Part shown: in pieces, positions 7,464-23,418 of the stretch
Layout: each line of letters starts with the position of its first letter
How positions within the stretch are numbered: the first letter of the stretch is position 1
Assembly: GCA_905250105.1 (NCBI GenBank)
Contig: CAJNOC010000253.1
Coordinates: 23,720-48,154 of the forward strand
Reading direction: 5' to 3'
Length of the DNA stretch: 24,435 nucleotides
Source of the DNA: Brachionus calyciflorus
Taxonomy: Eukaryota
Translations under genes and position numbers: made by a program
Notes under the pieces: model-generated
Told to the model about the DNA's origin: nothing
The model's input: only the letters and a program-made list of their open reading frames with translations
Databases searched by the model: none

Positions 7464-8117
7464 TTAGCATTTAACTTCACAAATCACATGAAGATATGCA
7501 TATGGTTCTCGATTATTCACACCCTGATATTCACGTTTTTCTATGATATATTTATCATACAAAGCATAATTACTACACTCATCTGAACATTCAATATTTA
7601 TTAAATTGTTATAACCATCTACCCATTTCCATTTCTTTTTATCTATTGAATAATAAGCTCCTAACCAATAACCATTATCACTTGAATTCGAATTAGGTAT
7701 TATATTAGGCTGTAGAATTCTTTCACCAATTAATGCTTTACCCAAAAAATTAAAATTAAATTTTTAAAATTATTTTTTTAAAAAATTAAACTGACATCTT
7801 AGAAAATCAAGATCCTCTGAAATATGAATTACGGGTAAATGTCCACCAAACGATAAGCAATAATCCTCGGCAAATAACCATGGCATTTGTAAATCGGCTA
7901 TTGAATACAAATAATTTGTTGATGGTCGTTGAATAAAACCAAAGTTCTGCGGATACAAACAAACTTCATATTTGTTCAAAACAGCTTTGGAAAAAAGAGT
8001 TTTAAAACCATTATTGGAAAATTCACGACCAAAGTTTGGTGATTCAATGACAGGTAAGCTAAAGAAATTTTCAATTAGAAAAAATAGTATGAAAAAATAT
8101 CTTTTGAAATTTTTCAT
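7464..8117 (-). CDS. Secreted C-type lectin domain protein, two exons: 8117..7796 and 7735..7464 (60-nt intron 7795..7736, donor GTCAGT, acceptor AAG)
   Basis: ATG at 8117. Signal peptide 'MKNFKRYFFILFFLIENFFS'. Exon 1 encodes the N-terminal half of the C-type lectin domain ('WLFAEDYCLSFGGHLPVIHISEDLDFL'). Exon 2 encodes 'GYWLGAYYSIDKKKWKWVDGYNN...ECSNYALYD...YAYLHVICEVKC' (WIGL / W.W.DG / C...C C-terminal motifs). The two track ORFs (7770..8117; 7464..7745, TTG-started) share a frame and are separated by stops that a 60-nt phase-1 intron removes. The exact splice sites are inferred. Confidence 0.7.
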
Positions 8118-8196
8118 TTTTAATGATAATCATTTAAAAAAATTTAATTGAAAAAATTTATTTTAATTAAAAAAAATTTAAATTTTAAATTTTTTT

Positions 8197-8493
8197 TTAT
8201 TTGAATTTACAAGTTTTAATTTTTTCATCAAAAACTAAGCCAATGGGACAATTCATAATAAATAATTTTCCATTAGAACAAATTCTAAATTTATTTAAAT
8301 AATTTTTGATTTCACTCAAATGTACGAATTTATTACATTTTATTTCATCCTTTGACAATTTATTATCTTTTTCGATCTGAGCCAAACCTAGTTCCAGGTC
8401 AATAAATTCAGCCGGAACATACTTTTGAATATACGGATAAGATTCCACGTTTATTAGAAAAATTAAGACTAAAACAATAGATTTTAAATTCAT
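8197..8493 (-). CDS. Small secreted protein (98 aa) with a peritrophin-A / CBM14-like chitin-binding core
   Basis: ATG 8493. Signal peptide 'MNLKSIVLVLIFLINVES'. 'CNKF...FRICSNGKLFIMNCPIGLVFDEKIKTCKF' matches the 'C.NG....CP.GL.FD.....C' core. Only 4 Cys instead of 6, hence moderate confidence. Confidence 0.45.
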   Translation of the reverse strand: MNLKSIVLVLIFLINVESYPYIQKYVPAEFIDLELGLAQIEKDNKLSKDEIKCNKFVHLSEIKNYLNKFRICSNGKLFIMNCPIGLVFDEKIKTCKFK

Positions 8494-9687: not shown

Positions 9688-11024
9688 TTAATCAGGCACA
9701 TCCAAAACAATAATAACATTATTAGGCTTTAAACTCGAATTATCAATTTGCTTATTATTATTACTTTTTAAAATAAACTCATTTTTAAATTTATTATTGT
9801 TATTTTTAAGCTTGAAAAAAAATGCCAATTTTGATTCTTTACGCTCAGATTTATCCATATCATTCTCATCCGTACTACTCGTATTACCAAATGTAATCAA
9901 TGACGAATTATCCGGTTCAGTATTCAATTCTCTATTGCTTTTCTTATTTGTATATTTAACATTTCCATACAATTTAAGCCATGGCACCCAATTAATCAAA
10001 TACTCACATAAATCTTTTTGTATGCCAAACCACCAAACATTACCCGTACGATTACTAAACGACAATAGTAAAAGACAAACATGAGATACTAATAATGGAA
10101 TAGTACATGAAAAATATGAGATAAAATCTTTTTGTTTTTTTACAATCTTATTTTGATAGTAATAATTTATAAAAATATCGTCTATGTTATAATTATTAGT
10201 AGTGGTCTCGAGTTGTTGGTCGAGTTTACTTATTAATAAAATAAGAAATGTTAAAAAACTAAAATATAAAATTGTCTTGAGCAAAAGACTGAGGAATTTT
10301 TGTGTAAAATTAGTCTGATATATGACATGTGTATCTTGTAGGCTTGATAATTCTCTACCATTTGAATTTCGCTGGGTTAAACGCGACGAAATTATGGTCA
10401 ATATAAACAAGTATAAAAGAATTATTAACCCGATTGACATACACAACCACATAGGTATCATTACTAACTTAAATTAGACTTAAATTTAGAATTAAAAAAT
10501 AAATAATTTTTTTTTTGTTACTTACTATCCATGACCATTGTATAGTTTGGTCTAATCTAAGAGCTATGAAAATAAATTGTAGAATGTTTAGAGAGCAAAA
10601 TATTTCAATTTCGTATGAACGATCATAACGTATTGACCATATTGTTAAAGCTAAAGATAATATGGATAGTATGTACAATGGTATGAAGCATATAGTCCAT
10701 GTTATGTAAATTAAATGATTATTTAATTTGTAACAAATAATAAGCTCGAATAATAAGAGTAATAAATTTGTTAAAAATGCGAATAACATTGATTTAAATT
10801 GGACAAATGTATTGCGATCAAATGGTACTGAATTGTTTTGGCTATTGTTTTTACGAGTCATACGAAACCATACACAACTACCTACAATCATACCGATAAA
10901 AGCTGTTAATTTCCATAGCCATAATGGTGTAAATACAATCCAATATGAAATTTGAATTGTTTGATCGAGACGTAATGAGAATAGTGTAAAGAAAATACTT
11001 GTACAAATTAGAACAAAAAATCGC
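9688..11024 (-). CDS. TMEM185: TMEM185 (FAM11) family multi-pass membrane protein; exons 11024..10526 and 10467..9688 (58-nt intron 10525..10468, GTAAGT...AAG); 5' coding exon not located
   Basis: Translation '[39 protein letters not shown]...[31 protein letters not shown]...NVWWFGIQKDLCEYLINWVPWLKLYGN...VLDVPD*' aligns to vertebrate TMEM185A ('[31 protein letters not shown]', '[26 protein letters not shown]', C-terminal 'MPD'). Upstream acceptor 'tttttaaag|G' at 11025/11024 in phase 2 means the first coding exon (about 13 aa) lies further 5'. Poly(A) signal 'aataaataaaa' just 3' of the stop on the minus strand. Confidence 0.8.
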
Positions 11025-12510: not shown

Positions 12511-15500
12511 ATGAAATTTGAAAATAATGAAATTATCTGCTTGGATATAAGCAGTAGTACACCGTATAAAAAGAAAAAATCAATTATTGATTTACTTACT
12601 TTAACAGGTGCCAAAGTATCGGGTATTCTTAATCGCAAGTCGAAATTATTAATCGTTGATCAACGACAAAATTTAGACTCGTATAAATTTCGAACGGCTT
12701 TTAAGCTCAATATACCAGTTGTTCATGTCGATTATTTTTTCAAGTTATTACTTGATAATGATTCAAGTGTTGATATTAAAGCCTATGTGATTAGAGATAA
12801 TACTAATGATAAAAAATTCGAAAAAGGAATTATTTCTGCAGGTTTTTTATTAATTTAAAAAATTTTTTTAAATTTAAATTTTTTATTTTTATTTATTAAG
12901 TATGTGAAAAGAAAGAATTTGATCTTGGTAAAATTAAGTGTTATTCGCCTGAAAATGATCCCTATTTGAATGAATTCGAATCGAGTGATTATCAAGTTAT
13001 AAAATGGATTGTTTTTCATGTAAGTAAAACATATGTATTGAAAAATTTTTTTTTTCTCTTGATAATTTTTCAATTAGTTAATCTTAATTTTCTTATTTAT
13101 TTATTTACAAAATAAATTAGCAATATTTATAATAAATACAGTCAGGTCGCGCTTTTATCACCCCATTTGTCCAGCTGAAAATGTGTGATAAAAGTGGATT
13201 GTGATAAAATTAAAAAATATAAAAAATTAATTTATTAGACCGAAAAAATAACAAAACAAATTTTTAAAAAACATATTATATTATAGTATATTTGCTGATT
13301 TAGCAGCTAAATACCATCTGTATAGAGCTTCTTCTACTAATGAAAATTAGCCGAGTTGAATTCCTGATTATTTACTAGTAGTTTCTTCATCGGCCAAATT
13401 TAAATACTTGTCTTTTACTTTAGAAAAATTTGGTAACTGTGGAACGCTCGACATTGAACTCTTCGGCTATTTTTGCATCAGTCTTATCTTTCGTCAATTA
13501 TAACTTTTTTTTATCGAATTAAGAATTTTTTGTCGTTTTTGGACCATTTTTATTTTTTTAATGAAAGAAACAAAGTAAAAAAATGAGGTGATAAAAGTAT
13601 ATAACATTTATTATGCATTGTATTAATAAAAATAAACATATTTCAGTGATTAAAAAGAAAATGGTGACTAAAATGGTGGTCTAACTAAATATTTTTTCTA
13701 TTGAAAAGTATTCAAGGCGATTTGTTCCTCAATTTTTTAGTGATAAAACCTAAATGTGACTAAAGTATGTGGTGATAAAACCGTGACCTGACTGTATGTA
13801 GTTTTACGTCAATATTCTTTCTAAAACTTTAATATTGAAATTTAAATAGACCATATTTTTCTAAAAAATAACTAAAGTGGTTTATTTAAAATTTAATTTT
13901 AACTAATTTCTAAATAATAAATTTCAGCAGACTTGTTATTTCACATCAATAAATTAATTTTATTAACATACAAAGGGCTAAAAAGGGCACAACAAAAAAA
14001 AAGATTTTTGATTTCGAAAAAACTAAAACCCACAATTTGTTCAGAATTTTTTCTTGTTTCAGAAATTGTATTTTTCAATACGGACAAGATTAGGCATTTT
14101 TTTGCTTTTTTTAAAGAATTTTTTCCGCTTTTTTCCGCATACTTTTTAAAATTTCAGAAATTAAACTTTTCTAAAAATTTTGCTTTCCTAGATTTTCATT
14201 TGAGGTAAAAAACTATATCTGAAGATAGTGTGGAAGTTTTGCATTTCCGGAACCTTATCTCAGAAACTAGAAGCTTTGATATGCTAGCATGTCCTTGACA
14301 GTATAAATAAGGATTCTATTCTTTATAACTTCAGATCGATCCAACTTTATATCTTATGTACTTATTAAATAAACTAGTTAAACAATATATTTTTGAACAT
14401 TTTCATTATTATTTTAAAGGAGCACAATGGAAACCGTGAGATTGTATTTGAGATAAATTCAAATTCAACTAAATACCGTCTAAGATGGGAAACAATTAAA
14501 CAAAAAGTTGAAATAAAAACCTATTATTCAGATGACTCATACGAAATATACGAATTATTTCGTCACTTAACAAAGTCATTTATGAACCAAAAAATTTACA
14601 AATATGACAAAATTCTAATGAACTCAAAATCGGGATCCACAAGGCTACAAAATGAATACGTTAAATCTCTCGTTGAAAATTCATCATTAATGTCAGAAGA
14701 TCTAGTGAATTTTTTAAATTACATATGGAGTGAATCGATTGGAAATTTAAACAAAATATTTCAAACAAATAGAAAATTCTATGGACTTTCAAATGAGAAA
14801 TTAGACAAAGCTGAATTAATTCTATACAAACAAAAAGAAGAATTTAAAAAAATTCCCTCGGAAAGAATTGATTTATCAAAAGAATTCTATTCACTTTTAC
14901 CATTTAGACCAAGTTATTTTAAACCGATTATAATTCGTAAGAATTTAAACGATCAATTCGAATTAATTCAAGTCTTACGTGACATGATGAACATAGGCGA
15001 AGAGACAAATTGGAATTTAAGATCTTCTGTTAATTCCATATATCGTTCAATCGGTTGTTTCATAAATCCGACAACAAATAATGACATTAAAGAAAAAATT
15101 CTACAAAATCTAGACAATAATTTAGAATTATTAAACGTGTATGAAATAAGTCGACCTGGTGAAATTTTAAACTTTAATAGACAAAATTTAAATAACATTC
15201 AATTATTATATCATGGTAGTAAAGCGTCGAATTTAGTTGGTATTTTATCACGTGGTTTATTGACACCGAAAAAAATTCTATCATCAGAAGGATCAGATAT
15301 TTTAGAAATGCTCGGACACGGTATTTATTTTTCCGATAGTCTATCAACTAGTTTAAAATACGCATGGCCAAGTGAGTGTAAAAATACACAATTAATTCTA
15401 GTGTGTGAAGTGGCTTTGGGAAAATGTAAAGATCTATTTGATTTTGAGTTTGATTTAACACAAGCACCCGAGGGTTATAATAGTGTTCATGGCGTTAAAG

Positions 15501-18500
15501 CAACACCGGATACTCAATCAAAATTTGAAGATAGTGAATATTGTGTTTATAACACTGAACAATGTAGAATTAAATATTTATTAGAGGTCAAGGCTAAGGA
15601 TAGCAAGTTGAAAAAGTATGGTAATTTATTACAAAATGAACAGGAAAATGTTTCAAATTGTATTCTAAATGAAAATATTGATTTAAATTTAATTAAAAAA
15701 AAACAAGCTAATTCAGAACTTAAGACTTTGAATGGTAAAAATTTACCATTAAAATCAGTACATGTAAGAGCTGAAATAATAGACATGGTTAGCAAGGTTG
15801 TTATTTTTCAAGAATATGAAAATAACGAGGATGAATCAATTGAGGCAGAATACTTATTTCCATTAAACGATACGGCAACTGTGTGTAATTTCGAAGCGTT
15901 TATTAATGATAAGCACATAGTTGGTGTTTGTAAAGAAAAAGAAATAGCTCGTAAAGAGTATAAAGAGGCTATTCAACAAGGTAAAGGTGCTTATTTAATA
16001 GACCAAGAGACTAGTGAAATATTCAAAGTTAACGTTGGTAATTTACCAGCAAAAGCTAAATGTGTTATCAAAATAACTTACATTTCCGAGCTGGAAATTA
16101 ATAATGAACAAATTATATTTCGCTTACCGAGTAATGTATGCCAATGGAAATTATTAGAAGAGAGAGTAAAATTACAAGAAAGTGTTGTGTCAAAATTTAT
16201 AAACAGAATGGGATTTATTAAAAAATCTTCATTTAAAGCTAATATTATAATGCCATTTGAAATAAGAGCTATTAAATGTTATACTCATGAATTGAGTATT
16301 AAAAAAACATCATGTCAAGCTGTTTTAGAAATGGGTGAAAAGATAAGTTCATTAGAAAATGATGATACTTTAATAATAGCTATTGAAATAGCGACTATAC
16401 ACATGCCTAGAATGTTTGTTGAAGATTATATAGATGAGGATAAAAATGAGAGTAGAGCTTGTATGGTTTCGTTTTATCCTGAATTCGATATGGGTGATAG
16501 ATTAAAACAAGAAATACCAATAGTCAATTTTGTTATTGATTGTTCGAATTCTTTAAATGAGAATAATTTGATAATACAATCGAAAAAACTCGCTTTAATC
16601 ATGTTAAATTTATTGCCCAAAAATGCTTTATTTAACATGATTATTTTCGGTTCCGATTACCAAGAATTATTTCCATATCCTCTAGCAGTAACTAATGAAA
16701 ACATTGAAAAATGCAAGGAATTTATTTTCAAAAGCATAACAGCTAATAAAGGAAATACAGATTTGTTAAGATATTTACAAAAAGAGAATCTTTTAGATTT
16801 TCAAAGAAATTATATTTTAATATCAGATGGTCATATGACAAGATCAAACGATTTAATTCGTTATTTGTCAACAGAGCAAAAAAATCGAATTTTTTCATGT
16901 AGTATTGGTAATTTAAGTAATAATAATTATTTACTTAAATTGATAGCCAATTTGACTAAATCAAATTATGCATTTTTTGACATGAGTGCTCAGAGTAAAT
17001 GGCGCGAGAAAATACACGATTTAATGGATAAAATTCAACAACCACCAGCTATTAGTAATATTAAAATTGAATGGCAAAATTATCGTGATCAACATGACTC
17101 GGACTCTTTTGACTATTGTTATGCTCCGAATAAAATTAATTGTTTATTTAATGGTAGACGAGTAGTCGCCTATGGTTTCATACCAAATTGTCAACAAGCT
17201 ATTTTAAAAGCAACTATAAATGGATTTGAATATGAAACCATGGTCACGTGTCCAGAATTAATGATAACACGTGGTGATCTAATACATAAATTAACAGCTA
17301 AAAGTCTAATTGACGATTGGCAAAATGGGATTTTATGTCATGATGATAAAATTCAAAACGATTTGATCAAACAAAAACTCAAGCATAAAATTATAAATTT
17401 AAGTAAAAAGTTTAGTATTACGAGTGAATATACGAGTTTTATAGCCATTGAGGATAGGGAACCCAATGAAATTTGTGCGAATCAAATTCAAGTTAGGGAT
17501 TTATTAGATAAAGAAGATTTAAAAATTGATATACTACCTTATATGGGCTATGAAAAAAATTCTCTTACTGAAAAAAATAATGAAATTCACTTTGAGTCTC
17601 TAAGTTTTTATGATAAAAATTATTTATTTGATTTTTATTCAAAAAATGAGGATCTTATTATGTCAAATAGAGAACGATTATTTTTAGCTGACGAATATAA
17701 GAACAGATGTATGATTAAAAAAGCCATTGAGATCTTAAGCTTATGCGAAAAGAATCAAGATATTGACGATTTAGTTGAGTCTTACTCGAAACTTAAACCA
17801 AAATTGGTTATAAAAATGTTAACTGGTAAGACAATTTCTTGTGAAGTAGGTGACTTGAATACAGTTGATGATTTAAAAAAGTTAATACAAGATAAAGAAT
17901 GGATACCGATTGATCAGCAAAGACTTATTTTTAATGCTAAACAATTAGAAGATTCGACATGTTTAAGTGAATATAATTTAGAAGATGGTTCAAGTATTTT
18001 TTTAGTTTTAAAATTACGTGGTGGGCCTGAAATCCGTACGAAAAAGATTTTTAACTTTTCTAAACCAACTTTAAGTCAACCCAGAGAGTTTATTGAATCA
18101 GAATCATTAGAAGATGAAGATAAACATTTTAGCTGTGATGAAGACTTAGAGATAGGAGAATTTGAAGAAGAAGATAAACATTTTAGCTGTGATGAAGACT
18201 TAGAGATAGGAGAATTTGAAGAAGAAGATAATCAAGTTAAAGAAATTGAAAAAAATTTAGAACGATTAGAAAAAGATTTAGAAATTAATAAAACTAGTGA
18301 AATAAAAAAGGAGGAAATCAAAATGAACAATTTAAACAATCAGAATAATACGAATTTAAAAAGTAAAGAGAAATGTTTAAATAATCAAGTTTTAAAAGAA
18401 TGTGAAAAAACGCTACTTCCTCCTCCTCCTCCTCCCCCTAAAGCTATTCCGTCTATATTTGGAGCCAGTCAACAGCTAGCATTTCCAGCTCAACAACAAC

Positions 18501-19522
18501 AATTGAAAAGAAATAAAGGTTTTTCTCAAAATCAAGTTTTAGAAAACTTAGCAATGCCATCTCCTTCTTCTTCACCATTTCCACCTGCTTCATTTTGTTT
18601 TGGAACTAGTAAAATACAACAACAAAATTTCAAGCAGTTTCAACAAATGGGTTACTCTTCAATGCCTTCTGCTAGTCAGCTCAGTTCAAGCATTTTTTTA
18701 AATGCCTCTTTTATAGAGCCACAGTCTTTAATTTCACGAATAACTAGGGATAATCTGAGTAATAAACAACAGTCACAATGTGATTCAGGAAAATCAAATG
18801 AAAGTTTATTTAGCAACAATTCAGAAAAAGGAATGATATTAGAAGAAAGTTTATCAAGTTCTAAATTTATTTCTAATGCTTTTTGTACAGATGAACCTGA
18901 AAAAACAATACGATTTAGAAGAACTACAAAAAAACTTTCAATTAGTCGATCAAGGATGGAAAGAGAAATATCCAATGAAAATGATTCAAATCAGAATAGT
19001 TTATTGTTGAATCAGTCGAAAAATATTAAAATAATAAATACCAAAACCCTAAATGAATATTTAAATGAAAATTTATCAATCAAAGCAAGATTTTTATCTT
19101 TAGAAGATATAGACGCAGTCGATTTGGATCAATTTGCGAGACTTGATTTAAAATTTCGAATAAAGAATAGTGAATTTGATTTGAACGGTGTATTGGAGTT
19201 TTTAAATTTGATGGGCTTGAGATCATTTGGTGAAGAAATGGCCAAGCAAATTAAAGAAATGATTTACAAGTTGATAATTTTGGTCTTGTTTAGCAAAATT
19301 TTATTGGGTGAGTCAGATGTTAAATTAGAAAATTTAGATCAAATGAAAACAAGCTTGTTTGAATGTTGTAATTTACGTTTTTCCTTTAGACCGGAGATCG
19401 AAAAATTCATCAGATCAAGCATTGAATATGTTGAGAAAATTCAAATTAAATATCCAAATGTTTGTGATAGTTTAGAATTAGGAAGAAATTGGAATAAAGT
19501 ATTAAGCAGTTGGTTTTTTTGA
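12511..19522 (+). CDS. PARP4: Vault poly(ADP-ribose) polymerase (PARP4) orthologue, about 1850 aa; exons 12511..12841, 12901..13019, 14420..19522. Domains: BRCT, PARP catalytic, VIT, vWA, embedded ubiquitin-like domain, C-terminal domain similar to the vertebrate PARP4 C-terminus
   Basis: Exon 1 is a BRCT domain ('[43 protein letters not shown]...') with the same BRCT-first architecture as vertebrate PARP4. Intron 1 is 59 nt (12842..12900). Exon 2 ends in phase 0 at a perfect GTAAGT (13020). Intron 2 is 1400 nt and contains a MITE. Acceptor 'ttattattttaaag|GAG' at 14419/14420 is phase 0; the track ORF start at 14393 is TTG, not a real start. Exon 3, PARP catalytic: 'LLYHGS' (His), '[15 protein letters not shown]' (Tyr), 'SEYCVYN' (Glu), '[15 protein letters not shown]', '[11 protein letters not shown]', all near-identical to human PARP4. 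VIT: '[23 protein letters not shown]...[25 protein letters not shown]...[21 protein letters not shown]'. vWA: '[13 protein letters not shown]...IISDGH'. C-terminus: '[14 protein letters not shown]', compare human 'LELGNDWDSATKQLLG'. Confidence 0.85.
13149..13794. mobile_element. Tc1/mariner-like non-autonomous element (MITE), 646 bp, 24-bp terminal inverted repeats, TA target-site duplication, inside PARP4 intron 2
   Basis: Left TIR 'cagtcaggtcgcgcttttatcacc' (13149..13172). Right TIR reverse complement 'cagtcaggtcacggttttatcacc' (13771..13794), 22/24 match. Flanking 'ta' at 13147-13148 and 13795-13796. Sub-terminal 'gtgataaaa' reiterations. No transposase ORF. Confidence 0.8.
17801..18025 (+). 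other. Ubiquitin-like domain embedded in the PARP4-like CDS (aa 1137-1211 of the exon-3 ORF), ending LRGG followed by Pro
   Basis: '[75 protein letters not shown]' compared with ubiquitin '[76 protein letters not shown]'. In frame with both flanks ('...SKLKP|KLVIK' and 'LRGG|PEIRTKK'). Confidence 0.85.
18116..18235 (+). repeat. In-frame 54-bp tandem duplication (about 2.2 copies) inside the PARP4-like CDS, encoding '[18 protein letters not shown]' twice
   Basis: 'gaagataaacattttagctgtgatgaagacttagagataggagaatttgaagaa' is repeated at period 54 (18116 and 18170). Confidence 0.9.
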
Positions 19523-21194
19523 AAATAATTTTCTAAATTTTTAATTTTGAAAATTTATAGCATTCAAATTCTTTATGTTTTGTTGCTTTTTTAGTTTATC
19601 AAATAAAATTTTTAAAAAATATCTTTGTTTCAATTTTTTAATTTCCACAAACGAATATAATTCTAAATAATTATCGGCTGCTTTTGCACCTGGAATTCAA
19701 GAGCCCGAAAGTCTTGAAGAGCGTCTCAAGTTAAAAAGAATAAATTTTTTTATTTTGAGAGGGGTCGCTGAATATCTCAAAAAATGTAAAAATATTATTT
19801 TAATTAACGGTGCCGGTCTTAGTACATGTATGACTGTTTTTTAGATTCAAAAATATTTCAATCAATAAATTATTTTAATTTTATTCTAAATTTTAAGTCG
19901 CAGGTTTACCTGAAGCTTTAGAAGTCCTATGCTCATATGGATGTGCTTTGACTTAACGTTAGGGCAAAGGGCATATTTAGACTTTATTCTAAAGGACCCT
20001 CGACCATTTAATGAAATAGTTTTTTCAACAAGCTAAAAATCCTTCTCTATCACATTATATCCAAAGTATCTCGGTACAAAAAGACAAAGTCAAAAGAGTT
20101 TATACTCCAAATATAGACTGCTTGGAAACTAAAAAAATTTAAAACGGGCCGAGGGTTTTTTAAACCCGTCATTAAAAAGTGCAACTGCGACTCCTTGCAC
20201 CCCTCCCGCCGTTAGGAAGAGAATAAACAGTCCACCCAATTCTTCAACGCCGCCTTCTTCAAAAAAATCAGCCAATAAGAAAAAGTGTCAAATTCAAAGA
20301 TGTAATCAAAATAAATCCAACTTTACTTGTAATGGCTGCTAAAAGCTTCTTGTGGGCCATGTCTGCATGAAATGGTTTTAAAAGCATTGTGTCTAAGTTG
20401 ACGATTAGAACACTTGGTATTCCCAAGCGACCACTTTCTCGTCAAAGTAATAACCGGGCTCAATTTTGCTTAACTTCGGTGATCGACCGAGAATCGGTGC
20501 ATTACAAGTGATCACTCATTTATTCTCCTATTTAAATTTTTAGAGAAAATTAAAAAAAATTTTTAAAATTGAAATAAATCTTTATTTTGCCGAATTTTGT
20601 TTACCTTTTTCAGAATTTTCGACTATAAAATAAAAAAATGAAAAATTAAATAAATTCGCAATTACTAAAAAGGGAGTTTTTAAGAAATATCCTTGGTTTT
20701 CAAATTTTAATTTTTTAAAAATTTTTTTTTTATTTGGGTGAAACTTTTTTGTGTCAGGAGTGGGGACTTGAACCCGGACCTTTGAATCAACTAGGGTCGC
20801 TAATTAATTCAAAATCCCAGGTCCCCCATCCAACGACTCGAACCATTGGGCCATCACCGGCCTTAATTTTTTTAAAACTCTTTCAAAAATGTAGAAATGT
20901 AAAACATTTACAATAAATTACATTTTGCCAAAAATGCCTGAAGTGAATTTCTGAATTGTATTAATTTGTTAGTTGAATTAACTATTAATTATTTAAATAC
21001 TAATTAATTTTTAATTCAATAATATTTGAAAGGGCTCACGGCTTTCAACACTTTATTCACACCTGTCAGGTTTTCAACATTTTTTTTTCTTTCTTTAGCC
21101 GCTTTAAAAAAAGGTCCAAAAATAATCGAGAAAAAGTGTAAAAAAATTGTTGAAAGATTGGTAATTATAATAATAATTATAAAAAATTTAAATA

Positions 21195-23418
21195 TTGCAA
21201 ACCAAAGAATTGAATAATTTTTTGATTCAATTTCAAAAAATAATTATGCAAACAAATTACACAATTATACCAACATCAAGAAGTGGACACTACTTATTTT
21301 ACCAAAAACATCTCTTTTATAAAGTAAAACCAAAAAATCCTGTGACAGGAATAACGACTTGGCGATGTCGCCGTTATCATAATGAAAATGTAAAATGTAA
21401 AGCTTTTTTAAAAGCAAACGATGAAATTGTTTTAAGTTTGACAAATGAACATGAAAAACATGATGAAGTAGGTCAATTTGAAACAGTTATGCTTTCAGCA
21501 AAACAAGAAATTAAGGAAAAAATAAGTACGGTGAGAGTCCCAGTTAAAATGTTATTTTAAGAAACTATTTGTAAAACAATTGAGAAAAATAATTTTACGT
21601 GAAGTGAAGCTGCAAAATTCGTACCAAAATTTAAAAATATAGAAAAAAATTTATACAAACAAAAGCATTTAAATGAAATAAAAAAAAATAAATTGCCAAA
21701 AAATTTGTACGAAATAACCTGCGAAGACGAATACGAAATATATAAATTAACCACCGATAAGAAACGTTTTTTGCTATTTGATTTAAAAGATCAGTCAAAT
21801 GACGATCGAATCTTATGTTTTTCATCAGATGCCAACTCCAAATTTTGAGTAAATGTCAAAGATGGCATGTTGATGGGACTTTCAAAGCTGCTCCAATTTT
21901 GTTCTATCAACTTTACTTAATTCATGGATGGTACAAAGATGAAATGCATTCATGCTGTTATATTTTTTTGTCCAATAAACAACAAAAAACATATGAGAAA
22001 ATGATTTTTAAATTTTAAAAAAGTGCAAAAGATCAAGGATTTGACTTAAAACCTCTGATGATTATAAGCGATTTTGAAATAGCTGCTATAAATGCTTTTG
22101 AATCAGGATTCAATAATGTAATAATGAAAGGGTGTCATTTTAATTTTACCCAATCTATATGGAAAAATATTCAAAAAATGGTATAAGTGATGAATATAGT
22201 CGAGTTGACGCAGTTTACGAGTGGCTAAATATGTTTAAATCATTGGCATTTATCAAACCAGAATATATAGAAAGTGCTTGGCATTTAATTGGACGATTTA
22301 TTCCATCGTATAATCAAAAATTTCAAGATTTACTTATTTTTAGAGATACATGGTATGGTAATGAGAGAGGAAAGTTTTCACATTCTTTGTGGAATCATTT
22401 TTACACTGAAGGGCCACGTACTAATAACCATGTGGAAGGGTATAATCATAAAATAAACAACTATATAGATTATACCCATCCACACATATATTCAGCAATT
22501 AATACTTTAAAAGTTCTTGAAACTTCGACTGGTTTGAATTATTATCAGCGCGAGTTAGGTGGCTTAAGTCAATTTCCAAGGAGACCAAAAGACATTCAGC
22601 CAGATGTAATGATAAACTATTTAAAAAATAAATTAGAAGTTGGCGATTTAGGAATTTTACAATTTTTAACGCGTATGGGTAACCTTTTTCGGTTTGTTAA
22701 ATCCTTTAAAAAAACAAGATTTACTTTCACTGAAAATTTAATCTCAAATGAGTCTTTTAAGGCTGTAGTTTCAATTTTTAAAATATCTAATCAATCTTTT
22801 AATTTTATTCCTTGTTATATAAAAAATAATCGGGATTTTATGGTCATCATGGTAAAAAATTTTCGAACTAATAATGGTATTTGCTTTTATAATTCAAATT
22901 ATTACGATTTAAACCATGATTGTGTCCTTAAAAAATGGGATTGTTATTATGGAATTTGTTTACAGACAACTGGTGACGGAAATTGTTTATATAATGCTAT
23001 ATCCTTAGCACTTTTCGGGAATGAATCCAGTTCAAATAAAATAAGGTTATGTATGGTATTTATTATTCTAGAATATGAAGATTATTTTCGTAATTTAGTC
23101 AAAAGTTTTCAATAAACTGATAGTTTTGAAAAAACATTAATAGATTCTGCTGCTCTTGGTATTTTTGGTAATGATTTTAATATGGTAGCATCAAGTCTTT
23201 TGTTTCTCAGGCCTATAAAATGCTATTCAATTGGTAATATTGCGTTCGATGTTGATACAGCTAAAAAAAATCTAATGCCAATTTACTTATCACTAAAAGA
23301 TGTTCATTTTACACCTATTGTATCTATCAACAATTTTTTTTCAATAGCTCCTACAACTGGTGATCACTTGTGTTTTATTAAATATGGTTTTGGTGACTTA
23401 AAACTTTATCAATTTTGA
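21195..23418 (+). mobile_element. Decayed Mutator-like (MULE) DNA transposon coding region: FLYWCH zinc finger (ATG 21246..21560), MULE DDE transposase core (about 21830..22640), C-terminal OTU-like cysteine protease domain (about 22900..23400); at least one in-frame stop and two frameshifts
   Basis: FLYWCH: 'SRSGHYLFYQKHLFYKVK...WRCRRYHNENVKCKAFLKANDEIVLSLTNEHEKHD'. MULE: 'WHVDGTFKAAPILFYQLYLIHGWYKDEM..CYIFLSNKQ' then (after TAA 22016-22018) 'KDQGFDLKPLMIISDFEIAAINAFESGFNNVIMKGCHFNFTQSIWKNIQK' then (frame change about 22160-22180) 'YTEGPRTNNHVEGYNHKINN'. OTU: 'TTGDGNCLYNAISLALFGNE' (catalytic Cys) and, after another frame change (23115/23182), 'KDVHFTPIVS' (His motif). Element termini not resolved. 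Confidence 0.75.

What the first reader, a model, noticed from the sequence alone, without database searches (positions are those of the whole stretch)
17801..18040. Complete ubiquitin domain fused inside a vault-PARP (PARP4) orthologue, ending LRGG-Pro
A 75-aa segment with very high similarity to ubiquitin itself sits in frame between the vWA region and the C-terminal domain of the PARP4-like protein. Conserved stretches include LTGKTI, IQDKE-IP-DQQRLIF, KQLED and the terminal LRGG. Known PARP4 architecture (BRCT-PARP-VIT-vWA-C-terminal domain) has no ubiquitin domain. The residue after GG is proline; ubiquitin-Pro junctions are a classic deubiquitinase-resistant linkage. So this looks like a non-cleavable, built-in ubiquitin moiety (UFD-like degron or ubiquitin-receptor handle) rather than a cleavable ubiquitin-fusion precursor. 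The catalytic H-Y-E triad is intact, suggesting an active ADP-ribosyltransferase carrying its own ubiquitin tag. An assembly or chimeric artefact is unlikely because both junctions are in frame within a single 5.1-kb ORF, with the repeat and low-complexity insert immediately downstream.
Basis: partly seen in the sequence, partly recalled or inferred. Interest (0 to 1): 0.8.

Follow-up and report, generated by a model that had tools for sequence, protein, structure and literature searches.

The report
Built-in uncleavable ubiquitin in rotifer PARP4
A rotifer version of the vault enzyme PARP4 carries a complete ubiquitin copy welded into its flexible middle by a conserved cleavage-blocking proline, an old feature shared with molluscs and a sponge whose PARP4 proteins also carry pieces of other core cell proteins, so the region may act as a set of molecular baits.

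Summary
Window 17798-18025 encodes a full ubiquitin fold (Pfam PF00240, E=1.4e-21; 55% identical to ubiquitin; AlphaFold pLDDT 93-97). It ends in LRGG followed by Pro and lies inside one 5.1-kb exon of the Brachionus calyciflorus PARP4 orthologue. That protein has BRCT, an ART domain with an intact H-Y-E triad, VIT, vWA and an MVP-interaction-like C-terminus.

It is not a Brachionus oddity. The same module sits at the same position in PARP4 of other rotifer-like organisms, bivalves, gastropods and a sponge, and these copies share substitutions not found in ubiquitin. Of 27 distinct intact GG tails, 23 are followed by Pro. The LRGG tail and the L8/I44/V70 patch are among the best-kept positions, whereas K29 and K63 are lost. 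This supports a deliberately uncleavable, displayed ubiquitin, but not a classical UFD degron.

In relatives the same linker also holds fragments of 14-3-3, actin, histone H3 tail, ribosomal P-stalk tail, Pol II CTD, VAMP, HSP70 and calmodulin, sometimes within single ORFs. In mammals this linker is the rapidly evolving disordered region. My best reading is that the ubiquitin is one element of a bait or pseudo-substrate array. I found no publication describing this. Function is inferred, not shown.

The parts
12511..12840 (+). Exon 1 of the PARP4-like gene. It encodes aa 1-110, including the BRCT domain.
   Evidence: tblastn of the identical public protein P0001 on the window. Pfam BRCT matches aa 9-79 at E=3.3e-6.
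12900..13019 (+). Exon 2, encoding aa 111-150.
   Evidence: tblastn, 100% identity.
14420..19507 (+). Exon 3, a single 5.1-kb coding exon. It holds the ART, VIT, vWA, linker, ubiquitin, low-complexity and MVPID-like regions.
   Evidence: An uninterrupted ORF spans 14393..19522. tblastn places P0001 aa 147-1846 here.
15116..15592 (+). ADP-ribosyltransferase (PARP) catalytic domain with H, Y and E of the triad present.
   Evidence: Pfam PF00644 at E=3.8e-36. The alignment to human PARP4 8sx1 (E=1.2e-47) shows LYHGS, GIYFSDS and FEDSEYCVY opposite the human triad residues.
15749..16081 (+). VIT domain.
   Evidence: Pfam PF08487 at E=1.6e-37.
16526..16993 (+). von Willebrand A domain.
   Evidence: Pfam PF13768 at E=1.5e-9 and PF00092 at E=1.1e-5.
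17666..17788 (+). Two predicted helices directly before the ubiquitin. This is the position where relatives carry a 14-3-3-like C-terminal module; in Brachionus that similarity is not detectable.
   Evidence: The AF2 model shows helices at residues 2-30 and 34-42 with pLDDT 73-81. An HMM built from the 14-3-3-like modules scores 1.7 bits here, the same as shuffled sequence.
17798..18025 (+). Complete ubiquitin module, positions 1-76. L8, I44, V70, R42, K48, R74, G75 and G76 are kept. K29 is Leu, K63 is Asp, R72 is Lys and H68 is Phe.
   Evidence: Pfam PF00240 at E=1.4e-21. PDB phmmer. Alignment to ubiquitin and to 26 homologous modules. AF2 and Foldseek.
18014..18028 (+). The L73-R74-G75-G76-Pro junction. 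The would-be deubiquitinase scissile bond is followed by proline.
   Evidence: Read directly from the sequence. Pro at +1 in 23 of 27 intact homologous tails.
18026..18105 (+). Flexible segment after the junction ([25 protein letters not shown]...).
   Evidence: AF2 pLDDT 60-67 with no secondary structure.
18106..18231 (+). Tandem repeat with a 54-bp period, 2.3 copies and 97% match. It encodes an acidic 18-aa unit ([18 protein letters not shown]).
   Evidence: Tandem Repeats Finder. It does not score as a P-stalk-like motif.
18416..18484 (+). Poly-proline followed by an FG-like motif ([23 protein letters not shown]) inside the low-complexity region.
   Evidence: Translation. Collinear with the rotifer-like homologue P0016. 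Similar FG- and Pro-rich stretches were seen by eye in homologues.
19175..19504 (+). C-terminal helical domain homologous to the MVP-interaction domain (MINT/MVPID) of human PARP4.
   Evidence: phmmer against the PDB aligns it to human PARP4 residues 1598-1700 (9bw6/9bw7) at E=3.9e-4. The motif YP..C..LELG..W is conserved across homologues.
19897..19953 (+). Exon 4, encoding the last 19 aa of the public gene model.
   Evidence: tblastn.

Best explanation
The segment is a genuine, ancient, selectively maintained copy of ubiquitin itself, not a loose ubiquitin-like domain. It is built into the flexible linker that joins the enzymatic and ITIH-like body of PARP4 to its C-terminal anchoring domain.

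The module keeps ubiquitin's recognition surfaces, namely the L8/I44/V70 patch, R42 and the LRGG tail. A conserved proline directly after GG protects it from general deubiquitinases. PARP4 therefore permanently displays one ubiquitin in cis.

The most likely role is as a docking site or pseudo-substrate. Proteins that read or process ubiquitin, such as deubiquitinases, ubiquitin-binding proteins and ubiquitin-modifying enzymes of host or pathogen origin, would be held next to an active ADP-ribosyltransferase. If the anchor domain works as it does in mammals, they would be held at or inside the vault. In relatives the ubiquitin is one unit of a longer array of fragments of conserved cell proteins occupying the same linker.

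Shown here: the domain's identity, fold, position, conservation pattern and the Pro rule. Inferred: resistance to cleavage in vivo, binding partners, and the bait function.
For: - Identity and fold: Pfam E=1.4e-21, PDB phmmer about 1e-22, AF2 pLDDT 93-97, and Foldseek top hits that are all ubiquitin with TM about 0.9.
- Position: the same place, after the ITIH-like region, in 30 of the 120 best homologues. These come from rotifer-like organisms, bivalves, gastropods and the sponge Dysidea.
- Shared derived states point to one old acquisition. N25 is never kept (0/27), V26 is Leu in 21/27, and E24 is Ala in 11/27.
- Conservation of recognition features: G10 and K27 27/27, G47 26/27, L73 25/27, L8, V70 and G75 24/27, R74 and G76 23/27, R42 22/27.
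- Pro follows GG in 23/27 intact tails, against 1-7/27 at positions +2 to +10. Ub-Pro fusions are not cleaved by general deubiquitinases (PMC9703124).
- At long range the ubiquitin is better conserved than the enzyme core: Brachionus vs Mercenaria 55% against 38%, and Mercenaria vs sponge 68% against 55%.
- The tail after GG is predicted to be flexible.
- Array context: Pfam-significant actin, synaptobrevin and HSP70 fragments in homologues, and a systematic scan in which motifs occur far above shuffled controls. In the metagenomic contig L001, one uninterrupted ORF holds PARP-VIT-vWA-Ub-actin fragment and another holds P-stalk motif-HSP70 SBD-start of MVPID.
- The equivalent mammalian linker is a disordered region of more than 300 aa under recurrent positive selection, proposed as a host-pathogen interface (PMC4038475; PMC10450202).
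Against: - There is no experimental evidence on cleavage, binding or ADP-ribosylation.
- In Brachionus itself only the ubiquitin module is detectable. P-stalk-like and 14-3-3-like models do not score above shuffled sequence, so the array argument rests on relatives.
- Heterobranch gastropods have GG-Gly and Dreissena has GG-His, so the Pro rule is not absolute.
- Between close relatives the module evolves faster than the core: Dysidea paralogues show 58% against 96%. Some copies are degenerate (P0029, P0087).
- Vault anchoring is uncertain. The human MVP-contact residues K1618 and R1689 are Glu and Ser here, and MVP residues that bind PARP4 are reported as conserved only in vertebrates (PMC12280208).
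Confidence: 0.5

Rival explanations
1. Regulated processing site or 'tripwire'. The GG-Pro bond is cleaved, but only by a specialised protease. That could be a host deubiquitinase able to cut Ub-Pro, or a pathogen LXGG-specific protease. Cleavage would sever the catalytic and ITIH-like body from the C-terminal anchor and so release or activate it.
For: The LRGG tail is among the best conserved features although it is internal, which suggests recognition by tail-binding proteases. The junction lies in a flexible region between the enzyme body and the anchor domain. Suskiewicz et al. suggested proteolysis of this linker by viruses for human PARP4 (PMC10450202). From my own knowledge, USP4/Unp was reported to cleave Ub-Pro efficiently (Gilchrist, Gray and Baker 1997). 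Heterobranchs carry GG-Gly, which should be cleavable.
Against: Pro at P1' is the one residue that blocks general deubiquitinases (PMC9703124) and is poor for most cysteine proteases. Selection for Pro therefore argues for protection rather than cutting. There is no evidence for two protein products.
Confidence: 0.2
2. UFD-like degron. The uncleavable ubiquitin is extended into K29/K48 chains by a TRIP12/Ufd4-type ligase and sets a short half-life for PARP4.
For: An uncleavable Ub-Pro junction is the classical UFD signal (PMC9703124). K48 is present in Brachionus and in 17/27 homologues, with Arg in a further 5. The I44 patch is kept.
Against: K29, the lysine the UFD pathway depends on most, is Leu in Brachionus and is kept in only 3/27. 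The module is internal, about 1,280 residues from the N-terminus, not N-terminal as in UFD substrates. A constitutive degron does not explain conservation of the LRGG tail, or the neighbouring fragments of other proteins in relatives.
Confidence: 0.13
3. Functionless passenger. A retro-copied piece of an abundant mRNA (ubiquitin) landed in a large, insertion-tolerant disordered exon and simply persists.
For: All the fragment sources seen in homologues (ubiquitin, actin, HSP70, 14-3-3, histone H3, calmodulin, P-protein) are very highly expressed genes, which are the typical sources of retrocopies (own knowledge). The set of modules varies between lineages, and some ubiquitin copies are degenerate.
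Against: The module is shared by sponge, molluscs and rotifers with common derived residues. It stays in frame and is better conserved than the catalytic core at long range. Pro at +1 is conserved in a position-specific way. Neutral sequence would not survive that time span.
Confidence: 0.05
4. Assembly, annotation or chimera artefact.
For: None found.
Against: The module sits in a single uninterrupted 5.1-kb ORF. Its base composition matches the rest of the gene. An independent public protein is identical. The same architecture occurs in many species and in single ORFs of unrelated metagenomic contigs.
Confidence: 0.01

Closest known systems
Vertebrate PARP4 / vPARP (vault poly(ADP-ribose) polymerase)
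   Same: The order BRCT - ART (H-Y-E) - VIT - vWA - long linker - C-terminal MVP-interaction-type helical domain is the same. The catalytic domain aligns to human PARP4 at E=1e-47 and the C-terminus to the human MINT domain at E=4e-4.
   Different: Vertebrate PARP4 has no ubiquitin. Its linker is a rapidly evolving disordered region (PMC4038475, PMC10450202). The human MVP-contact residues K1618 and R1689 are not conserved in Brachionus. Vault association outside vertebrates is untested.
[quoted passage not shown]
   Same: A complete ubiquitin joined by a peptide bond that general deubiquitinases do not cut. Pro directly after G76 is exactly the classical case (PMC9703124).
   Different: Those are artificial N-terminal fusions whose degradation depends on K29 and K48. 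Here the ubiquitin is natural, internal and lacks K29, so degron function is doubtful.
Natural ubiquitin precursors (polyubiquitin, Ub-eL40, Ub-eS31)
   Same: A ubiquitin sequence ending in LRGG and followed by more polypeptide.
   Different: Precursors are cleaved co-translationally, and to my knowledge their +1 residue is never Pro. Precursor ubiquitin is invariant, whereas this module is 55% identical and sits in the middle of a 1,865-aa enzyme.
Integral ubiquitin-like (UBL) domains such as those of Rad23, parkin and ubiquilin
   Same: A beta-grasp domain that stays part of its protein and is read by ubiquitin receptors.
   Different: From my own knowledge, those UBLs are typically only about 20-35% identical to ubiquitin and lack the LRGG tail. 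This module is 55-75% identical across homologues and keeps the tail.
Integrated decoy domains of plant NLR immune receptors, the bait region of alpha-2-macroglobulin and the NLRP1/CARD8 'tripwires'
   Same: Copies or mimics of host proteins targeted by pathogens are built into a defence protein. Here ubiquitin, and in relatives actin, VAMP, 14-3-3, P-stalk tail, H3 tail, HSP70 and calmodulin fragments, sit in one linker of a protein suspected of immune function (PMC4246468 for the decoy concept, listed).
   Different: This is an analogy of logic only. There is no sequence relationship, no evidence that any pathogen factor binds, and the output domain is an ADP-ribosyltransferase rather than an NLR or a protease trap.

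Membership tests
PARP4 / vPARP | N-terminal BRCT domain | tested here: met
   Pfam PF00533 at E=3.3e-6 on aa 9-79 of the full gene model. Exon 1 lies at 12511-12840.
PARP4 / vPARP | Central ART domain with the H-Y-E triad, most similar to PARP4 among the PARPs | tested here: met
   Best PDB match is human PARP4 8sx1 at E=1.2e-47, against PARP2 at 5e-24 and PARP1 at 3e-19. H, Y and E all align.
PARP4 / vPARP | ITIH-like region (VIT + vWA) after the catalytic domain | tested here: met
   PF08487 at E=1.6e-37 and PF13768 at E=1.5e-9.
PARP4 / vPARP | C-terminal MVP-interaction domain (MINT/MVPID) | tested here: met
   Aligns to human PARP4 residues 1598-1700 at E=3.9e-4. The motif YP..C..LELG..W is shared with vertebrates.
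PARP4 / vPARP | Residues that contact MVP in the human complex (S1614, K1618, R1689) | tested here: not met
   S1614 is kept, K1618 is Glu and R1689 is Ser in the alignment. The contact residues are taken from PMC12280208.
PARP4 / vPARP | Physical association with vault particles | not testable with these tools
   This requires biochemistry. I did not check whether Brachionus encodes MVP.
Ubiquitin family (PF00240, beta-grasp) | Profile match above the curated threshold | tested here: met
   76.5 bits against a cut-off of 25.4.
Ubiquitin family (PF00240, beta-grasp) | Beta-grasp fold | tested here: met
   AF2 pLDDT 93-97. Foldseek top 50 PDB hits are all ubiquitin or ubiquitin variants, with rmsd mostly 1.4-2.6 A (one hit 4.0 A).
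Ubiquitin proper (as opposed to a UBL) | LRLRGG tail plus the L8/I44/V70 patch | tested here: met
   The tail reads KLRGG, and L8, I44 and V70 are present. R72 is Lys and H68 is Phe.
Ubiquitin proper (as opposed to a UBL) | All seven lysines, allowing every chain type | tested here: not met
   K6, K11, K27, K33 and K48 are kept. K29 is Leu and K63 is Asp.
Ubiquitin proper (as opposed to a UBL) | Released with a free G76 carboxylate so that it can be conjugated | tested here: inconclusive
   G76 is followed by Pro, which predicts no release by general deubiquitinases (PMC9703124). Actual processing was not tested.
UFD-pathway substrate | Non-removable ubiquitin at the N-terminus | tested here: not met
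   The junction type fits (Pro), but the module is at about aa 1277-1352 of 1865.
UFD-pathway substrate | K29 (and K48) of the fused ubiquitin as chain acceptor sites | tested here: not met
   K29 is Leu and is conserved in only 3/27 homologues. K48 is present. The requirement is taken from PMC9703124.
Integrated decoy / bait array (functional class, not a sequence family) | Module closely mimics a host protein that pathogens target | tested here: met
   The module is 55% identical to ubiquitin, and 75% in Mercenaria, with recognition surfaces kept. Homologues carry actin, VAMP, HSP70, 14-3-3, H3 and P-stalk fragments.
Integrated decoy / bait array (functional class, not a sequence family) | Several such modules in this particular protein | tested here: not met
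   In Brachionus only ubiquitin is detectable. P-stalk and 14-3-3 HMMs score the same as shuffled sequence, and the VAMP-like similarity is weak.
Integrated decoy / bait array (functional class, not a sequence family) | A pathogen or host factor binds the module and this triggers a response | not testable with these tools
   This requires binding and infection experiments.

The most novel reading that the evidence does not exclude
The linker of ancestral animal PARP4 is an integrated array of baits. Short copies of the cell's most conserved hub proteins (ubiquitin, actin N-terminus and D-loop, 14-3-3 C-terminus, histone H3 tail, ribosomal P-stalk tail, Pol II CTD, VAMP SNARE motif, HSP70 substrate-binding domain, calmodulin, FG repeats) are strung between an ADP-ribosyltransferase and a vault-anchoring domain. 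Toxins, proteases and effectors that attack these hubs would be captured, ADP-ribosylated or caged, or would cut the tether. On this reading the uncleavable ubiquitin of this window is the bait for deubiquitinases and ubiquitin-modifying effectors, and the fast-evolving disordered exon of mammalian PARP4 is the degenerate descendant of this array. That would give PARP4 and vaults a concrete innate-immune mechanism and an animal counterpart of plant NLR integrated decoys.
Probability: 0.3. Interest if true: 0.92.

Novelty: new variant of a known kind. Interest (0 to 1): 0.72.

Why it matters
The function of PARP4 and of the vault particle has been an open question for decades. The only evolutionary clue so far is that the disordered linker of mammalian PARP4 evolves very fast, as if it were facing pathogens.

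This window, together with its relatives, shows what that linker looks like in invertebrates. It contains a nearly authentic ubiquitin held in place by a conserved cleavage-blocking proline. In other lineages it also contains recognisable pieces of further core proteins.

That turns a vague 'specificity interface' into named modules with testable partners, such as deubiquitinases, ribosome-inactivating toxins, SNARE-cutting proteases and actin toxins. It is also a rare natural example of a conserved Ub-Pro junction, a configuration otherwise known mainly from engineered reporter proteins. None of the 8 full-text searches run, nor the papers read, described either feature.

Tried and rejected
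1. I tested whether the acidic tandem repeat just after the ubiquitin (18106-18231) is a diverged ribosomal P-stalk tail (DDDMGFGLFD-like). An HMM built from 13 homologue motifs scores 10-15 bits in Mercenaria, Nucella, Dysidea and Elysia. Nothing in Brachionus scores above shuffled controls. Rejected.

2. I tested whether the helices before the ubiquitin are a 14-3-3-like module as in relatives. The HMM places its best Brachionus hit at the right spot, but at 1.7 bits, equal to shuffles. Not detectable.

3. VAMP-like similarity of '[18 protein letters not shown]': this region is collinear with P0016, whose own VAMP similarity is weak. Inconclusive.

4. NEDD8, ISG15, FUBI or SUMO identity instead of ubiquitin: ubiquitin is clearly the closest. 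Rejected.

5. Chimera or foreign insertion: composition is normal and the ORF is continuous. Rejected.

6. A profile search (A2) intended as a census of Ub-bearing PARP4 across phyla returned mostly fragments and polyubiquitins. It added 7 tails but little taxonomic breadth.

7. DNA for P0002 could not be fetched because the sample file is too large.

8. Cluster look-ups gave no organism names for the rotifer-like metagenomic proteins.

9. Eight literature searches found no description of a ubiquitin module or a protein-fragment mosaic in PARP4. The library lacks most subscription journals, so this absence is not proof.
Full report
**What is in the window**

The window is AT-rich (GC about 26%). 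It contains one very long ORF on the + strand, 14393..19522. Pfam finds in it:
- a PARP catalytic domain (E=3.8e-36);
- a VIT domain (E=1.6e-37);
- a vWA domain (E=1.5e-9);
- further on, a ubiquitin-family domain (PF00240, E=1.4e-19 in context; E=1.4e-21 and 76.5 bits alone, cut-off 25.4).

A public protein from the rotifer Brachionus calyciflorus (P0001, 1865 aa, 'unnamed protein product') is identical over the 1700 aa queried (exon 3) and adds a BRCT domain. Mapping it back to the window gives four exons: 12511-12840, 12900-13019, about 14420-19507 and 19897-19953. The ubiquitin lies deep inside the 5.1-kb third exon.

**Check of the observation**

Window 17801 is a codon start. Ubiquitin positions 1-76 correspond to 17798-18025, G75-G76 to 18020-18025, and the next codon (18026-18028) is Pro.

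Identity to ubiquitin is 42/76.

An AlphaFold2 model built on 22 homologous segments gives pLDDT 93-97 over the module. It shows two helices before the module and an unstructured tail after GG with pLDDT 60-67. The 50 best Foldseek matches in the PDB are all ubiquitin, with target TM-score about 0.9 and rmsd 1.5-2 A.

GC3 of the segment (0.145) is within the gene's own spread of 0.195 +/- 0.052. H, Y and E of the catalytic triad align with human PARP4. The last 110 or so residues of exon 3 align with the MVP-interaction (MINT/MVPID) domain of human PARP4 at E=3.9e-4. A 54-bp tandem repeat follows at 18106-18231.

**It is not peculiar to Brachionus**

Among the 120 best homologues of the ORF, 30 have a ubiquitin domain at the equivalent place, after the end of the ITIH-like region. 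They include:
- several rotifer-like proteins from metagenomes;
- bivalves (Mercenaria, Ruditapes, Mytilus, Dreissena, Crassostrea, Saccostrea, Potamilus, Sinanodonta);
- gastropods (Nucella, Littorina, Physella, Lymnaea, Aplysia, Elysia, Plakobranchus and others);
- the sponge Dysidea avara.

Vertebrate, echinoderm, cnidarian, amphioxus and bdelloid-rotifer PARP4 proteins in the list lack it.

The modules share states that ubiquitin does not have. N25 is never kept, V26 is Leu in 21/27, E24 is Ala in 11/27, and I3 is Leu in 15/27. This points to one old acquisition followed by losses, not repeated captures.

The published accounts I could read give PARP4 no ubiquitin domain: Citarelli 2010 (PMC2964712), Suskiewicz 2023 (PMC10450202) and Lodwick 2025 (PMC12280208). 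Eight full-text searches found no description of one. Public databases, however, already list PF00240 for these proteins.

**What the conservation pattern says**

The best-kept positions are:
- the fold-defining glycines and K27;
- the L8/I44/V70 surface (24, 26 counting I, V and L together, and 24 of 27);
- R42 (22/27);
- the tail L73 (25), R74 (23), G75 (24) and G76 (23).

K48 is kept in 17, with Arg in 5 more. K29 is kept in only 3 and K63 in only 2.

Pooling all distinct PARP4-type tails, 27 of 32 end in GG, and 23 of those 27 are followed by Pro. Pro occurs in only 1-7 of 27 at each of the next nine positions. The exceptions are Gly in heterobranch gastropods, which also changed L71 to Gln, and His in Dreissena.

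Ub-Pro is the one junction that general deubiquitinases do not cut, and engineered Ub-Pro fusions are degraded through K29 and K48 of the ubiquitin (PMC9703124). The data therefore support selection for an uncleaved junction. They argue against a classical UFD degron, because the module is internal and lacks K29.

At long evolutionary range the ubiquitin is the best conserved part of the protein: Brachionus vs Mercenaria 55% against 38% for the core, and Mercenaria vs sponge 68% against 55%. Between close relatives it changes faster than the core, as in the Dysidea paralogues at 58% against 96%. That pattern is what one expects of a sequence held close to a fixed model, real ubiquitin, rather than to its own past.

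**The context that changes the reading**

In homologues, the linker holding the ubiquitin also contains recognisable pieces of other extremely conserved proteins. Pfam, above its own thresholds, finds:
- an actin fragment (profile positions 7-66) and a synaptobrevin SNARE motif in the sponge protein;
- an actin fragment and an HSP70 substrate-binding fragment in Dreissena;
- synaptobrevin in Ruditapes.

A scan of all 120 proteins with reference sequences and motif patterns found the following (the 14-3-3 alignment is):

| Module | Where found |
|---|---|
| C-terminal third of 14-3-3, directly before the ubiquitin position | 17 proteins, nearly identical to real 14-3-3 in amphioxus |
| Actin N-terminus | 11 proteins, including crinoids, a hemichordate and Nematostella |
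| Histone H3 tail motifs | 11 hits vs 0 in shuffles |
| Ribosomal P-stalk tail (DDDMGFGLFD-like) | 13 hits vs 0 in shuffles |
| Pol II CTD heptads | 33 hits vs 0.05 in shuffles |
| HSP70 substrate-binding domain | 6 proteins |
| Calmodulin | 2 proteins |

The same sub-region of each source protein recurs across phyla, and the order along the linker is roughly constant.

These are not gene-model fusions. In the metagenomic contig L001, one uninterrupted ORF encodes PARP-VIT-vWA-ubiquitin-actin fragment. Another encodes P-stalk motif-HSP70 fragment-start of the MVP-interaction domain.

In Brachionus itself only the ubiquitin is still detectable. P-stalk and 14-3-3 models do not beat shuffled sequence, and a VAMP-like similarity is weak.

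**Link to what is known of this linker**

In mammals the segment between the ITIH-like region and the MVP-interaction domain is a disordered stretch of more than 300 aa encoded by the largest exon. [quoted passage not shown] Proteolysis or modification of it by viruses has been suggested (PMC10450202). The invertebrate ubiquitin and the other fragments sit in exactly this position.

**Most likely mechanism**

*Shown:* a true ubiquitin fold with preserved recognition surfaces and tail, flanked by flexible sequence, joined through a conserved Pro, in an enzyme with an intact catalytic triad and an anchor-type C-terminus.

*Inferred:* the Pro keeps host deubiquitinases from cutting PARP4 in two. 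The displayed ubiquitin recruits proteins that read or process ubiquitin to the ADP-ribosyltransferase and possibly to the vault. It is one unit of a bait or pseudo-substrate array. I put this at about 0.5.

*Rivals:*
- a selectively cleavable tripwire (0.2), given that the tail is so well kept and that, to my knowledge, USP4-type enzymes can cut Ub-Pro;
- a degron (0.13);
- a functionless retrocopy remnant (0.05), which the conservation makes unlikely;
- an artefact (0.01).

**Caveats**

Vault anchoring in rotifers is uncertain. Of the human MVP-contact residues, S1614 is kept, but K1618 is Glu and R1689 is Ser. MVP's PARP4-binding residues are reported as conserved only in vertebrates. The taxonomic census rests on the top 120 hits of one search. 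A second, profile-based search added only fragments. Nothing here tests cleavage, binding or activity.

**Verdict**

The module is an ancient, widely shared part of invertebrate PARP4 rather than a one-off, and the degron variant is unlikely. The more interesting lead is the mosaic of host-protein fragments around it in relatives, which I could not find described in the literature.

Noticed in passing
Homologues P0003, P0019-P0023, P0027, P0031-P0036, P0041, P0048, P0050, P0052, P0055, P0083, P0087, P0120; locus L001 6001-9702 and 10997-11896: The PARP4 linker of many invertebrates is a mosaic of fragments of conserved host proteins: 14-3-3 C-terminus, ubiquitin, actin N-terminus and C-terminal peptide, histone H3 tail, P-stalk tail, Pol II CTD heptads, VAMP SNARE motif, HSP70 substrate-binding domain and calmodulin. 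The order is roughly conserved. In L001 the fragments are encoded within single ORFs, so they are not gene-model fusions.
   Followed up: partly
window 18106-18231: A near-perfect tandem duplication (54-bp period, 2.3 copies, 97% match) encodes an acidic 18-aa unit right after the ubiquitin. It is recent, in frame, and not detectably related to the P-stalk motif found at a similar position in relatives.
   Followed up: yes
window 21195-21560 and 22159-23115 (+ strand): Downstream of the PARP4 gene lie a FLYWCH zinc-finger ORF (Pfam E=1.8e-7) and a 318-aa ORF. The second ORF ends with the start of an OTU-type cysteine-protease motif (GDGNCLYNAISLALFG; 18 bits, below Pfam's 23-bit cut-off). It may be part of a transposon-like element. 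A deubiquitinase-type motif next to a ubiquitin-bearing gene may be coincidence.
   Followed up: partly
window 19175-19504: In the MVP-interaction-like domain, two residues that contact MVP in the human cryo-EM structure are changed (K1618 to Glu, R1689 to Ser). S1614 and the LELG..W motif are kept. Across homologues, Arg at the 1689 position is present in sponge, amphioxus and echinoderms but not in most molluscs.
   Followed up: partly
window 18416-18484 and homologues P0002, P0006, P0020, P0023, P0024, P0062, P0087: Poly-proline tracts and FG, GLFG or FSFG-type repeats resembling nucleoporin FG repeats recur in the low-complexity region downstream of the ubiquitin. In Brachionus only two weak FG-like motifs remain ([11 protein letters not shown]). 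This was seen by eye and not tested statistically.
   Followed up: no
Homologues P0022, P0024, P0044, P0062 (heterobranch gastropods): Where the residue after GG is Gly instead of Pro, ubiquitin position 71 is also changed from Leu to Gln (LVQRLRGGG). This is a lineage-specific pair of changes at the deubiquitinase-binding tail.
   Followed up: no
window 13020-14419: The intron between exons 2 and 3 of the public gene model is about 1.4 kb, much longer than the 59-bp intron 1. I did not check it for missed exons.
   Followed up: no
window 7464-8493 and 9688-10891 (- strand): Neighbouring genes upstream include ORFs with C-type lectin (weak) and chitin-binding peritrophin-A (E=7.6e-8) matches, and a TMEM185A-like membrane protein (E=6.4e-16).
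   Followed up: partly
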